DNA of 63,206 nt, the filler included, from Octopus bimaculoides (Eukaryota): the NCBI RefSeq assembly GCF_001194135.2. It is 7 parts of 5 records of this genome, joined end to end, with 100 filler letters (N's around TTAATTAATTAA, not from the genome) between each part and the next. Parts side by side here need not be neighbours in the genome. Positions count along the whole stretch, not along the records: positions 1 to 7,726 come from NC_068983.1; positions 7,827 to 26,872 come from NC_069006.1; 5 more parts are not named here. One strand, written 5' to 3'. Numbering within the stretch: the first letter of the stretch is position 1; every line of letters starts with the position of its first letter. The notes below the pieces were generated by a model. The model had not been told where the DNA came from. It worked only from the letters and a program-made list of their open reading frames with translations, and did not search any database. Below, one piece after another: positions 1 through 17,588 of this stretch. The position numbers and the translations under genes were made by a program.

Positions 1-183
1 GTTTTGTTAAAATGGAACAGAAATAACGATATAATCAAAGCAAGTTAAAACATACGCCTTTAAAAATGTATTTGTTTCATTGGTCCTTTCAAATAACGGT
101 CTTAAGTATGCAAATCCATTTTAAAGGTGTATCCTATAACTAGTTTTGATTATATCGTTATTTCTGTTCCATTTTAACAAAAT
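1..183. repeat. Imperfect fold-back palindrome, probably truncated by the left window edge
   Basis: 2-39 (ttttgttaaaatggaacagaaataacgatataatcaaa) is the reverse complement of 145-182. An inner pair also matches: catacgcctttaaaaatgtatttg versus caaatccattttaaaggtgtatc. Confidence 0.9.
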
Positions 184-229
184 TGTCCGATGAACGGAAA
201 CGTGAAACTCTGAGTAACAGCTTTTGTTA
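175..229 (+). ncRNA. Minimal type I hammerhead ribozyme motif, variant core CCGAUGA
   Basis: Stem I 175-186 pairs with 217-229 (one G-U, one bulge). Core ccgatga 187-193. Stem II acg-gaaa-cgt 194-203. GAAA 204-207. Self-complementary stem III actc-t-gagt 207-215. Predicted cleavage after GUA at 216. Confidence 0.7.
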
Positions 230-247
230 TATTTCGGCTGCTTTTAG

Positions 248-290
<43 letters not shown>

Positions 291-322
291 CGTTAAACAC
301 AGGTGTTATTCGAATCTTTATA

Positions 323-410
323 CTTCCTACATATGTTTCGAAGAAAGCATTGGTATTATTCCAGACGAAATAAAATGATATAAAGCAATGCAACCTTCTC
401 ATCAGGGAAA
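323..410 (-). ncRNA. Type I hammerhead ribozyme with intact core
   Basis: Minus strand: stem I tttcc (410-406) pairs with ggaag (327-323). CUGAUGA 405-399. Stem II gaag...cttc is closed by G-C and extended by gcattg/caatgc. GAAA 339-336. Palindromic stem III acatatgt 336-329. Predicted cleavage after GUA at 328. Confidence 0.78.
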
Positions 411-865
411 AAAAGAGAAGCAAAACGCATCAGTAAGATATTTTAACTGAATGTGATGGCTGCATATATGATGAAGGAAACGCTGGTAAGTTAGTTTTAA
501 AATAACCGTTAACAGATATAATATCAAAGGCAATTTATAAAAAGAGAAGGAGGAGGAAGAAAGAAATTAACAGAAAACTAAAGTGGAGAAACATAGTGCG
601 ATAGGTGAATAGGAATAAAAGAATAATATATCTATTTCCACGCCTTTAATCTTTATTCCTATTCACCTATCGAACTATATTTCTCCACTTTTAATTTTTT
701 GCTAATTTCTTTCTTCCTCCTCCTTCTCCTTCTACAAATTGCCTTTGATATTATATCTACTAGCGATTTTTTAAAAAAAACTGACTTACTACCGTTCCCT
801 TAATCATATATCCAATAATCACATTCGATTAAAATGTCTTATTGATGCGTTTTGTTTCTCTTTTT

Positions 866-953
866 TTACCTGATTAGAAATTTTGCATTTCTTTATATCA
901 TTTTATTCCTTCTGGAATAATACCAATGTTTTCTTCGAAACATATGTCGGAAG
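866..953 (+). ncRNA. Decayed mirror copy of the hammerhead in the right arm of the palindrome
   Basis: Core ctgatta 870-876 (G8 changed to U, predicted inactive). GAAA 937-940. Stem III acatatgt, GUC triplet ending at 948, then ggaag. Confidence 0.6.
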
Positions 954-2118
954 TATAAAGATTTGAATAATACCTACGTTTAACTCCATTTATTTTATCT
1001 ATGTAATAAAAAAAAAACATTTCACCAAAACCTGGAATTTCTACCTTTATAAGTAGGCTGTTACATCCTTGGTACTTACGTGAATTTTTGCTAACCTGGT
1101 AACTATTTATTTTATCGTGTTATTTGCGAACATTGAAAAAATACGCATACATTTATATATATATACAGAACATGCGCCAAATCGTAACGTATTTTGTAAC
1201 TGATTTATCGAAATTCATTTGCTTCTTTCAGATTATTAATTATGCAAGTCTGGGCTCATGTCGTAAAATAAAACTGCGAATGGCCTAGGAAATAGACTTT
1301 GTTGGTATAGTCTTATGCGACGACTATAGAAAATTGTATAACTATAGTAGCATTTCTAGAGACAATTCAAGCAACCAGCGCCACTATCGAAAGCAGGAAA
1401 TAGTATTAACATACACTGTACACATATTGCGACGAATACTTTCAATGCAAATTGAAACGAAGAATTGCCTGTAACCAAAACACGAGGTACGCCCTTGCTT
1501 GTACTGTGAATGCAATCTATAAAAATGAGATTACCTAAATGTACAATAGTAATGAAATAATGTTGGTCGATTGTATCAGTTATACCAAAATCCGCTTTAA
1601 TTATTCTGGTTGATTCTAGCTGAAAAAGGGTCAATAAGTTATATTTGTTCATAAATACGTCTTTCATATTTAAGTCAGATGACTCACAATTTCCAAGGAT
1701 TTGAAATGAAAATATTTTGTTTTTGTTCTTATTTCAAGAGACTTAGACGAGATAAATATGAGTATTTATTTTAAATCAGTCATAGATTTGACTTAGTGTG
1801 TACTTAGCTCTGCTCTATGACACAGACCACACAGAAGGCAGCATATTATATCTCAAGTGGTGGCAAACATATACGAAGTCTCACATATTTTTCAATAACA
1901 GATGATAAAATGATATGAGCGAGAAACTTCTGACAGATAACATATAATATATTGAAGGAGAGGCTGAAAATAGCGCTGCAACGTCTGGGATGGAAATAAA
2001 ATTATATTTGTGCGTCTTTTTTATCAGTCGGTCTGAATACAACCAATCTGACTTCCGTCTGGTACTTTATTTATATATCTAACAATCTAATGTTCTCTCA
2101 TTCTTTCTCTCAATCTCC

Positions 2119-2191
<73 letters not shown>

Positions 2192-2557
2192 CCTCTAACA
2201 CACATAAATACGGAAAATATGCTGATACATATATCTTTGTCTTTCCTGTATAAGCGTAACTCTGTATTAATGAACTTGCTCATACACATTCACACGCATA
2301 CAGGCTTCCATAATTATATTTGTTATTGTTCAGCTGATACACACGTTGTATTCATATATATGATGTACACACTAATGTGTACATATAAGTACACTATACA
2401 CACATATATAAATGTATATTACATATGTATGAAGAGAGGAGAGGCAGAGAGCACCGGAAAGAGGGAGAGAGAGAGGGGGGATCAAAGATGACTGATAAAG
2501 CATGTGAGTATACTCTACACACTTTAAATATATTTCGTAACTTAGTTTTTCAAATAG

Positions 2558-2656
2558 TCCAAGTCTTTATGCATAGATTTGAAAATATTAGTCACTTGGT
2601 ACATTACGTTCATTGGTATTTAAATGAGGACGAAACTGGCGAACTGAGCATGCCGG
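2558..2656 (+). other. Candidate 99-nt exon (QVFMHRFENISHLVHYVHWYLNEDETGELSMP), unidentified
   Basis: Acceptor ttagtttttcaaatag and donor gg|gtaaaa. Only one frame is open. No homology recognised. Confidence 0.2.
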
Positions 2657-14571: not shown

Positions 14572-14772
14572 CATTAGACTGCGGCCATCCTGGGGCAACA
14601 CCTTAAAGTGTTTAGTCGACCCCAGTAGTTATTTCATGTCTTATACATACTCTACAGGTCTCTAGCTTGGCGAAACGCTACATTATGAGGATGTAAACAA
14701 ACCAAAACTTGGTGTCCAATGGCAGAGCAGCAAACACAAAGACAAGCACTCAAACACACACACACACACACA

Positions 14773-14814
<42 letters not shown>

Positions 14815-14970
14815 CGGGATTCTATACAGTTTCCATCCTCCAAATTCACTCACAAGGACATTGGTCATCCCAGGGCTATAGCAGAAGACACTCACCACCC
14901 AAGATGCCGCGTAGAGAGACCAAACGAACCGAAAACCATGTGGCTGCGCACCAAACTGCTTAACTACACA
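14572..14970 (-). mobile_element. Diverged full-length family B SINE (CORE-like, octopus OK/OR-type)
   Basis: Colinear with the better-preserved copy at 54449-54846. Confidence 0.7.
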
Positions 14971-15289
14971 ATCTTAAATACACATACACGCACACACACA
15001 CATACATACACAAACACATATATTATATATATATATATGCAAATATATATATATGCAAATATATATACGTACATATATATATATACATGCAAATATATAT
15101 ACATACATATATATATTTGCACACACATATATATGTAGATACACACACATACATATAGATAGATAGCTACATTTATATATAATAATAATATAGATGTAGG
15201 TATGTACATATATGTATGGATATATGCATATATTTATATATTATTTATATTATTACATTTATATATAGATACATTTGTGTGTGTGTATG

Positions 15290-15323
<34 letters not shown>

Positions 15324-15734
15324 GATATACATAGATGCCGACGTATATGTGCATACACATACACTCATATATATATTGCAATCCCGCCAATTGCTAAAAG
15401 TTATATCAAAGGTCACGAATATCAATCTTGATTACATGAAAATAAATGGAGAACAAAAAGGAAAAAGGGGGAAAAAAAAAGACATGTAATAAAAAATATA
15501 TTTGTATTTTAGGTTTTGGGCATGCGCAATGACGACGGAAATGATATAATGTGATAGTAACTGATTAAAGAAAAAGAATAATAATGAAATAAACGGCGAA
15601 CAGAACGATTAATGGCGTTTTGTTCACTCACACACATTTATGTATAGATGTACTTATGTATGTATATATACATCTATATATATATACATCTATATATATA
15701 TATACATCTATATATATATATATATATATACATC

Positions 15735-15768
<34 letters not shown>

Positions 15769-15858
15769 TATACATGACCAAATAATCCGGTTTCCTAACA
15801 CACAAACGCTCGTATATGTAAATATATGTACACTGTTCATACACACCCATATATGGGT

Positions 15859-15898
<40 letters not shown>

Positions 15899-17505
15899 CA
15901 TATACATACATATTCACGTATTCCTTGCAATTTTTATTTTCCTAAATTACAAATAGATTAAACTAAAGTCGATAATCGCAGAAGCACAAACACACATATA
16001 AACATGTATCTACGTATGCATGCTTGTATATAATACATATATACATATACATGCATACATATATAAGTACACATTCACACATACACCCACCTATCTGTTA
16101 GTATATGTGTGTGTGTGTGTGTGTATTTATATATACCTGTGTTTGAATGTTTAATCTATTCTCTGTTGCTTTCTTGAAAATTGTATGTAATGTGTTGTCT
16201 TTCATGAAGATATGTGTGCGCCATATGTAATTATACAAACATACATACATAAATACATACATACATATGTACACACACACACACACACACACATACATAC
16301 ACACACATACACATATATATGCATCGTAGAATGGTGATAAAAGACATAAAATATAAAAGAAAGGAAAGAGAAAATGAAAGGAAGAACGATAGAATGAAAG
16401 ATTAAACAGGAAACCAGAAGATAAGCTGCTTCTATTTGAACTTTCGATTCAACATGATCAGGATTCCATTAATGTTTACGATCAGATAACGTTTCAAGTC
16501 CCCTTGGCTGGGGAATTGGTAGCCTCTTAAAACTCATTAGGTTTTCATCATCAGGGAAAGTAGGAAGCAAGAAAAAAAAAAGGGAAAGGAGAAAAAAGTA
16601 GTAAGGGAGAATAAAGAAAATATCAAAGTATAGAAGAATATATACAAATGATGTAAAAATTGATTAATAAAACTATTATAGAATATAAAAATAAATAACA
16701 CTACAGTGACAAAGACAACAACAACAATAAGAGCAACAACGACACCAGGGATTATAATAACAAGTGGAACCAGCGGCGGCAGCACCGAAAAAAGACGACT
16801 ACACAAATGTATAAAGATAAAAAGGGCAACAAAACATTAACAATAAGCAACAATGCAAAAAATGCAAATATATTTTAAAATTTGTATTTTATTATTTGTT
16901 GTATAGCGTCCTTTTTTTGTTTTTACAATTTACTCTTAAACTTCAAGTTTCCAATTTTTGTAAGTCTTGCTTTCGCAAACATTTATTGTAATGTTATATA
17001 AGATAGATTATTATTTCTTTTTTACCTGTTGCTGTCGTTCGCATTGTTGCGGCTGATAGTGTTGTTGTTGCGCGTACGTACATTGGAATGTTCTTTGCTA
17101 TTTTGCTTGTAATATTCGNNNNNNNNNNNNNNNNNNNNNNNNNNNNNNNNNNNNNNNNNNNNNNNNNNNNNNNNNNNNNNNNNNNNNNNNNNNNNNNNNN
17201 NNNNNNNNNNNNNNNNNNNNNNNNNNNNNNNNNNNNNNNNNNNNNNNNNNNNNNNNNNNNNNNNNNNNNNNNNNNNNNNNNNNNNNNNNNNNNNNNNNNN
17301 NNNNNNNNNNNNNNNNNNNNNNNNNNNNNNNNNNNNNNNNNNNNNNNNNNNNNNNNNNNNNNNNNNNNNNNNNNNNNNNNNNNNNNNNNNNNNNNNNNNN
17401 NNNNNNNNNNNNNNNNNNNNNNNNNNNNNNNNNNNNNNNNNNNNNNNNNNNNNNNNNNNNNNNNATATACATATATATATATATAATTCTTATACTAGAT
17501 TGTTG

Positions 17506-17588
17506 TTGACAGCGACTTCAAAGTTTCGAACAACTAAGCCAACGTCCGACGATGACTTAGCTGACCGAAACTTCGAAGTCACTTTCAA
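17506..17588. other. ~83-nt in-register hairpin made of two inverted hammerhead-like half units
   Basis: 17514-17546 pairs with 17548-17580 without indels. The plus strand reads ccgacga...gaaa-cttcgaagt-c (palindromic stem III acttcgaagt, GUC triplet). Confidence 0.6.

What the first reader, a model, noticed from the sequence alone, without database searches (positions are those of the whole stretch)
1..17588. Several unrelated fold-back elements all carry hammerhead motifs: a possible palindromic ribozyme-element system
Four palindromic elements with no evident sequence similarity to each other (1-229, 289-988, 9005-9600, 17506-17588) each show the same architecture: a C(U/C)GANGA core, stem II, GAAA, a short self-complementary stem III (ACUCUGAGU, ACAUAUGU, ACUGAAUCAGU, ACUUCGAAGU) and a GUH triplet. 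Different stem sequences with the same geometry argue against chance. I found no Penelope coding sequence in the window. Inference: this genome hosts several non-autonomous, hammerhead-bearing, inverted-duplicated retroelement families mobilised in trans. I cannot tell whether these families have already been described.
Basis: partly seen in the sequence, partly recalled or inferred. Interest (0 to 1): 0.8.

Follow-up and report, generated by a model that had tools for sequence, protein, structure and literature searches.

The report
Penelope retrotransposon stumps with hammerhead ribozymes
The four mirror-image repeats are real and carry worn hammerhead-ribozyme motifs, but they are likely ordinary leftovers of Penelope-like jumping genes, which are known to land as back-to-back shortened copies, and not a new palindromic system.

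Summary
Observation largely real. The four strongest head-to-head fold-backs in the window are the four flagged. Hammerhead descriptors exceed shuffles: strict 2 versus mean 0.01; loosest 5 versus 0.3; 0 of 100 shuffles as high. Only E1 and E2's left arm have all three stems. E3 is decayed, and E4's 'core' straddles its palindrome axis.

E2 is a high-copy family in two organisms. It continues 5' past the palindrome centre, is deepest at the ribozyme end, has a one-sided tail and a majority-intact core, so the palindrome was likely made at insertion.

The same back-to-back hammerhead fold-backs occur in unrelated metagenome contigs.

This anatomy is published for Penelope-like elements (PMC4209133, PMC3846280), and this scan reported it twice before on other DNA. 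E3 alone looks like a ~420-nt ORF-less tandem unit. No autonomous partner was identified; cleavage is untested. Verdict: new members of a known kind.

The parts
2..182 (.). E1 head-to-head fold-back; left side cut by the window start
   Evidence: 146/183 identical, outer 38 nt perfect
183..220 (+). E1 type I hammerhead motif: core with C at position 4, 3-bp stem II with GAAA loop, palindromic stem III, GUA site at 216, 4-bp stem I
238..283 (.). (TA)n microsatellite at which the 3' ends of E1 and of the E2 left arm stop
   Evidence: sequence
288..624 (-). E2 inverted 5'-truncated copy (left arm)
323..410 (-). E2 intact hammerhead motif: CUGAUGA at 405-399, 59-nt stem II region, palindromic stem III, GUA site at 328, 5-bp stem I
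625..988 (+). E2 5'-truncated copy (right arm); the family continues upstream of 625
   Evidence: loose ends before 625 in 25 (X1) and 32 (X14) contigs
865..953 (+). E2 right-arm hammerhead motif, core position 8 decayed in this copy; family majority has the canonical letter
   Evidence: table 3, place 875: depth 273/316 (X1), 1132/1434 (X14); RNA reads 12/12, 13/13
989..1150 (+). E2 one-sided 3' tail ending at (TA)n; end near 1150 inferred from the window sequence, beyond the stretch laid
   Evidence: contigs run to 1110-1113, many other copies stop near 995
5989..6319 (-). decayed Penelope-type GIY-YIG endonuclease C-terminus (one frameshift, four internal stops)
5817..5840 (-). fifth hammerhead-like motif (core position 3 changed, 2-bp stem II, palindromic stem III, GUC), 149 nt after the endonuclease stop; followed about 100 nt later by (CT)n(AT)n
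9000..9141 (-). E3 inverted copy of the start of the unit
   Evidence: 126/141 identical to 9197-9341
9161..9198 (-). E3 second, 5'-truncated hammerhead half (end of stem II, GAAA, stem III, GUC at 9180, stem I 3' strand) running head-to-tail into the unit start
   Evidence: 30/38 identical to 9558-9595; score 45 versus max 34 in 2000 shuffles
9197..9600 (+). E3 ORF-less body with a 12-nt minisatellite and a decayed type I hammerhead (core 9540-9546, site 9576, two-part stem I); a SINE-like repeat starts at about 9594
17491..17603 (.). E4 113-bp fold-back of two hammerhead 3' halves (sites 17580 on +, 17514 on -), truncated within the core, in TA-rich sequence

Best explanation
These fold-backs are likely decayed insertion products of at least four unrelated Penelope-like retroelement (PLE) families, each made of the hammerhead-bearing terminal repeat joined head-to-head to a second shortened copy when it inserted. 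Shown here: the fold-backs; the motifs above chance; for E2 a high-copy family that extends past the palindrome at both ends and is deepest at the ribozyme end; and a Penelope-type endonuclease remnant followed by a fifth motif in the same window. From the literature: a PLE RT/GIY-YIG protein nicks AT-rich DNA and starts reverse transcription inside the RNA downstream of the hammerhead, giving 3' ends with an optional tail, and copies often carry an adjacent inverted 5'-truncated copy. Inferred: E1-E4 were inserted this way, E3 is an ORF-less ~420-nt tandem unit moved in trans, and the self-complementary stem III would let two RNA copies pair into a dimeric ribozyme. The present copies are old (9-23% arm mismatch), and apart from E1 and the E2 left arm they would not be expected to cleave.
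For: Descriptor enrichment. E2 family: 1752 and 2677 contigs laid in organisms A and B; summed depth 25,000-30,000 (X1) at 922-979 versus 37-4,600 at 487-863; loose ends before 625 in 25 and 32 contigs; common end near 995 into AT-rich sequence (27 and 63 contigs, 49 and 37 RNA reads) while other contigs run to 1112; canonical core is the majority. Window endonuclease remnant: two collinear domains of 8.0-9.3 bits versus top scores of 1.3-5.8 in 6 null windows, and 29.7 bits read through with X. The same layout (endonuclease end, then hammerhead about 95 nt later) is in L001, and L069 also has both. In metagenome contigs 8 of 22 distinct stem-II-positive motifs have a head-to-head partner versus 2 of 57 others, Fisher p 4e-4, families not independent. 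Literature: minimal hammerheads with palindromic helix III in pLTRs and pairs 100-700 bp apart on opposite strands (PMC4209133); inverted 5'-truncated copy, tail and microsatellite bias (10.1101/2021.04.23.441226); head-to-head junction palindromes and pLTR-only mobilisation in trans (PMC3846280); mechanism (PMC11167929).
Against: No PLE coding signal inside or adjoining E1-E4, and the remnant's terminal region is not similar to any of them, so no family is tied to an autonomous partner. Family data exist only for E2; E1, E3 and E4 are single loci. Pfam does not recognise the endonuclease remnant (it also misses that domain in intact P0126). E2's tail (at least 120 nt) is longer than the published 30-40 nt. 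E1 lacks G10.1-C11.1, and E2 lacks the extra base before stem II. A covariance model from 22 outside motifs ranked the two E2 arms first but weakly (E 0.031, 0.14) and did not hit E1, E3, E4 or the fifth motif among 13 matches; its helix III was fixed by how its members were selected. Summed contig depth is not a true copy number.
Confidence: 0.87

Rival explanations
1. The palindrome itself is the propagating unit: a dedicated ambisense RNA element with one hammerhead per strand (the strong form of the first reader's idea).
For: All 4 strong fold-backs in the window carry a motif; E2 has one on each strand; RNA reads of the E2 family come from both orientations.
Against: The E2 family continues beyond the centre and has a tail on one side only. 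E4 has lost the 5' half of both ribozymes. E3's arms are not ribozyme-terminated mirror copies. A fifth motif sits in a non-palindromic PLE remnant. 87-88% of laid RNA sequence runs on into unlike sequence, and no start or end pile-up is seen.
Confidence: 0.05
2. They are retrozyme-type elements that replicate as small circular RNAs and are integrated by a non-PLE reverse transcriptase such as a LINE.
For: E3 has a head-to-tail junction and a ~420-nt unit, near the 350-390 bp mussel retrozyme repeats (PMC7229834); LINE RT remnants are in the window.
Against: No array of two complete units; inverted 5'-truncated partners and tails are PLE hallmarks; animal retrozymes themselves are reported to derive from pLTRs (10.64898/2026.07.22.740005). 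No RNA joint from 3' end to 5' start among the joints shown for E2 (15 of 74 shown).
Confidence: 0.05
3. They are MITE or foldback DNA transposons, or assembly artefacts, with chance hammerhead look-alikes.
For: TA-rich flanks could hide a TA duplication; E4's core is not a real contiguous core; E1's outer 38 nt are perfectly identical at the window edge.
Against: 0 of 100 and 0 of 200 shuffles reach the observed counts; arms differ by 9-23%, unlike an assembly fold-back; E2 is asymmetric and 3'-biased with a majority-intact core; the two spaced TIR-like pairs in the window (13130-14236, 37219-38176) have no motif.
Confidence: 0.03

Closest known systems
Insertion units of endonuclease-positive Penelope-like elements (Penelope/Poseidon, Neptune): pLTR, adjacent inverted 5'-truncated copy, optional tail (PMC3846280; 10.1101/2021.04.23.441226; PMC11167929)
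   Same: Head-to-head inverted copies, 5' truncation, one-sided tail, AT-rich or microsatellite targets, hammerhead near the 3' end; endonuclease end followed by a hammerhead at 6319-5817.
   Different: E1-E4 hold no coding remnant; E2's tail is at least 120 nt rather than 30-40; no partner element identified; clade not assigned.
Minimal type I hammerheads of metazoan PLEs (Cervera and de la Pena 2014, PMC4209133)
   Same: Short helix I, palindromic helix III, pairs on opposite strands 100-700 bp apart (E2's cores are about 465 bp apart); E3 has the extra base before stem II.
   Different: Helix III is longer here (3-4 bp plus the A-U pair); E2 has a 59-nt helix II region; E1 has C at core position 4 and no G10.1-C11.1.
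Non-LTR (animal) retrozymes (PMC7229834; 10.64898/2026.07.22.740005)
   Same: ORF-less unit of a few hundred nt with a type I hammerhead and a head-to-tail junction (E3).
   Different: No tandem of two complete units, insertion is inverted, and circular RNA is not shown.

Membership tests
Penelope-like element insertion | RT plus GIY-YIG ORF, or its remnant, upstream of the hammerhead-bearing repeat | tested here: inconclusive
   Met for the remnant at 6319-5989 with the motif at 5840; no coding signal in E1-E4, as expected for short stumps or non-autonomous units
Penelope-like element insertion | 5' truncation of copies | tested here: met
   E2 only: depth peak at the ribozyme end and family continuing before 625; E4 truncated within the core (sequence)
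Penelope-like element insertion | Adjacent inverted copy joined head-to-head | tested here: met
   E2 and E4 directly, E3 with a tandem junction on one side, E1 only partly visible
Penelope-like element insertion | Optional tail on one end only | tested here: met
   E2: copies end near 995 or run to at least 1112; longer than published tails; not testable for E1, E3, E4
Penelope-like element insertion | AT-rich or microsatellite target | tested here: met
   E1, E2, E4 and the remnant end at TA- or CT-type repeats; E3's ends abut SINE-like repeats; the window is 17% masked as simple repeat or N, so this is weak
Penelope-like element insertion | Terminus shared with an autonomous PLE of the same genome | not testable with these tools
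Minimal type I hammerhead | Conserved core CUGANGA...GAAA...UH | tested here: met
   Exact in the E2 left arm and E3; one change in E1, the E2 right arm and the fifth motif; split by the axis in E4
Minimal type I hammerhead | Helices I and II, with G10.1-C11.1 | tested here: inconclusive
   E2 left arm met (5+5 bp); E1 4+3 bp without the G-C pair; E3 pair split between its two halves; E4 not met
Minimal type I hammerhead | Palindromic helix III | tested here: met
   All five motifs; two-copy folding pairs E1 and E2 through this region, but monomer minimum-energy folds do not give the hammerhead shape
Minimal type I hammerhead | Self-cleavage | not testable with these tools
   No pile-up of read ends in 2 RNA runs, which fragmented libraries would not be expected to show
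Non-LTR retrozyme | At least two consecutive complete units, each with a hammerhead | tested here: not met
   Only E3 has a head-to-tail junction, with one partial unit; no direct repeats of E1, E2 or E4 in the window
Non-LTR retrozyme | Circular RNA accumulation | tested here: inconclusive
MITE / foldback DNA transposon | Fixed terminal inverted repeats with a constant target-site duplication | tested here: not met
   E2 family ends are asymmetric and variable; no clear duplication at E2 or E3, ambiguous TA at E4

The most novel reading that the evidence does not exclude
E3 is an uncatalogued ~420-nt ORF-less retrozyme-like unit with a hammerhead able to work as a monomer (4-bp helix III, two-part helix I), caught inserted with the inverted junction typical of Penelope elements: direct anatomical evidence in a cephalopod-like genome that retrozymes are integrated by Penelope machinery, alongside a high-copy E2 family with a variable-length helix II insert.
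Probability: 0.35. Interest if true: 0.45.

Novelty: new member of a known kind. Interest (0 to 1): 0.2.

Why it matters
Mostly annotation value. Such fold-backs are easily filed as MITEs or unknown repeats, whereas they likely mark Penelope activity. The octopus repeat papers I checked list abundant Penelope-like elements but the words ribozyme or hammerhead do not occur in their main text. If E3 proves to be a tandem ORF-less family, it would extend the retrozyme-from-Penelope link, so far argued mainly in vertebrates, to an invertebrate and give a testable cis-element.

Tried and rejected
Rfam: 0 at gathering score; the weak list was microsatellite and hairpin noise. The E2-specific pattern found 0 metagenome matches. 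Viral-contig scans gave 2 and 11 matches, none with both stems I and II. Window elements matched fetched loci only over the 17-26-nt motif region or by chance. Pfam on 105 of 181 stop-to-stop ORFs (N-rich and microsatellite ORFs left out) found LINE-type RT, Pif1 and zinc-finger domains but no PLE. A 5-sequence PLE profile found nothing, tblastn with 155 PLE proteins found nothing at E 0.05, and only the 68-sequence profile showed the remnant. An inverted partner for the remnant at 6360-6830 was not significant. The left arm of E3 does not continue beyond the upstream SINE-like repeat. The covariance-model search was inconclusive for E1, E3 and E4. Run search: no RNA holder listed. A zinc-finger homologue search gave 1 unnamed hit. 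Descriptor hits at 51647 (+) and 17649 (-) were rejected as chance (stem II 0-1 bp). PMC5850863 and PMC5785218 are not held. No supplements were read; they may list cephalopod hammerhead or PLE families. Dfam and Repbase could not be searched.
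Full report
Setting. The window is AT-rich, microsatellite-rich animal-type DNA with 4,215 N. No whole genome is held. A LINE-type RT at 47544-48662 has as its best named relative an Argonauta hians protein at 60% identity, so an octopod host is inferred, not shown.

Observation. Self-alignment confirms four head-to-head fold-backs: E1 2-182, E2 288-988, E3 9000-9341, E4 17491-17603. Arm mismatch, gaps excluded, is 17%, 13%, 9% and 23%. 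Of 6 contiguous fold-backs in the masked window, these are the 4 strongest; the 2 weak ones carry no motif. They are unrelated to each other (12 of 12 comparisons within shuffle range). A strict hammerhead descriptor finds 2 sites (E1 +187, E2 -405) against a shuffle mean of 0.01, and the loosest finds 5 against 0.3, with 0 of 100 shuffles as high. Allowing one core mismatch gives 8 against 1.4, 0 of 200. Of those 8, five are in E1-E4, one is the new motif at 5840, and two I reject. The descriptors are post hoc. Rfam finds nothing.

The four are not equal. E2's left arm has an exact core with 5-bp stems I and II; its right arm has core position 8 changed. E1 has all stems but C at core position 4 and a 3-bp stem II. 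E3's motif lies about 200 nt outside its palindrome, with unpaired bases between stem I and core and a broken G10.1-C11.1 pair. E4's core crosses the palindrome axis, so E4 is two 3' halves back to back.

E2 family. I had one read-laying run and used it on 284-1140 with 4 of the 24 listed runs. 1752 contigs of organism A and 2677 of organism B fit at 80% or better. Summed depth peaks over the ribozyme's 3' half (X1 25,000-30,000 at 922-979, against single-contig depths of 5-18) and falls toward the centre, suggesting very many copies, though this is no true copy number. At 875 the family majority is the canonical core letter (273/316, 1132/1434; RNA 12/12, 13/13). Loose ends before 625 (25 and 32 contigs, agreement 0.88 and 0.82) show the family continues past the palindrome centre. 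Many copies stop near 995 in AT-rich sequence while others run to at least 1112, so the window copy has a tail on one side only. RNA is sparse (233 of 12.9 M and 187 of 12.0 M reads), in both orientations, mostly running on into unlike sequence, with no pile-up of ends. Many table rows were not shown (240 letter differences, 59 joints). E1, E3 and E4 have no family data.

E3. On the minus strand, 9198-9161 is a second hammerhead 3' half (30/38 identical to 9558-9595; score 45 versus shuffle maximum 34 of 2000), followed by a copy of the unit's start (126/141). That is a head-to-tail junction, giving about 39 + 380 = 420 nt between successive cleavage sites, with no ORF signature. This inference rests on one locus.

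Penelope coding sequence is present. A generic pattern gave 113 metagenome loci; L001 has a motif about 95 nt after an ORF with a GIY-YIG domain above Pfam's cut-off. From it I collected 155 relatives and built a profile from the 68 of full length. In the window it hit two adjacent, collinear segments on the minus strand in different frames (9.3 and 8.0 bits; top scores 1.3-5.8 in 6 reversed or shuffled windows), spanning 6319-5989; read through with X they score 29.7 bits, a post hoc join. A fifth hammerhead-like motif lies 149 nt downstream (5840-5817), ending near a microsatellite. Pfam and tblastn do not see this remnant. It is not a fold-back and is unrelated to E1-E4.

The architecture is widespread. 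Among 79 distinct motifs from the metagenome scan, 8 of 22 with stem II of 4 bp or more have a head-to-head partner, against 2 of 57 others. L008, L017 and L021 each hold two or three back-to-back pairs in 3.7-7.8 kb. In those 22, the mostly unselected helix I is 62.5% paired with two-sided changes at 4 of 4 pairs. A model built from them ranks the two E2 arms first in the window but weakly and misses the others, because its helix III is fixed by selection.

Literature seen. PMC4209133, parts 1-2 of 4: minimal hammerheads in pLTRs, palindromic helix III, dimer model, low activity in vitro, and pairs 100-700 bp apart on opposite strands. 10.1101/2021.04.23.441226, passages: adjacent inverted 5'-truncated copy, 30-40 bp tail, microsatellite bias, PLEs in Octopus. 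PMC3846280, passages: head-to-head junction palindromes, pLTRs sufficient in trans. PMC11167929, parts 1-2 of 4: AT-rich nicking, internal initiation, protein-assisted hammerhead not needed for insertion in vitro, no read ends at the site. 10.64898/2026.07.22.740005, parts 1-3 of 5: retrozymes derive from pLTRs; 1 of 9 tested cleaved. PMC7229834, PMC6765202, PMC13282606 and PMC8967140, passages. Searches for an octopus-specific description (listings only) found none, but Dfam, Repbase and supplements were not seen. Hammerhead position numbering is recalled. Two earlier notes of this scan reach the same reading on other genomes; my reading was stated before seeing them.

Verdict. It works like, and very likely is, Penelope-type insertion debris: new families of a known kind. 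Membership is met for truncation, inversion and tail in E2, indirect for E1, E3 and E4, and the autonomous partner and cleavage are untested. Interest 0.2.

Noticed in passing
window 2-39 and 145-182: The outer 38 nt of E1's arms are perfectly identical while the inner arms are far more diverged; at the window's first base this could be gene conversion or an assembly effect.
   Followed up: no
window 859-913: Loose ends at 859, 892 and 913 indicate E2 subfamilies with different and shorter helix II regions sharing the downstream part.
   Followed up: partly
window 46068-48662: Two LINE-type remnants: RVT_1 and zf-RVT on + (46068-47320) and RVT_1 on - (47544-48662), whose full-length relatives carry an AP endonuclease.
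   Followed up: partly
window 42086-42334: Pif1 helicase 2B domain fragment, probably a Helitron remnant.
   Followed up: no
window 61396-61797: C2H2 zinc-finger ORF inside a local duplication (61320-61491 / 61842-62014).
   Followed up: partly
window 13130-14236 and 37219-38176: Spaced inverted pairs with arms of about 165 and 146 nt (87% and 95%) and no hammerhead motif; origin unexplained.
   Followed up: no
window 8796-9000 and 9594-9694: Two abundant SINE-like repeats, each with many copies in the window, bracket E3 and hide its true ends.
   Followed up: partly
L069:5993-6635; L008, L017, L021, L009: L069 has a PLE endonuclease end upstream of a hammerhead; the others hold dense clusters of back-to-back hammerhead fold-backs.
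   Followed up: partly
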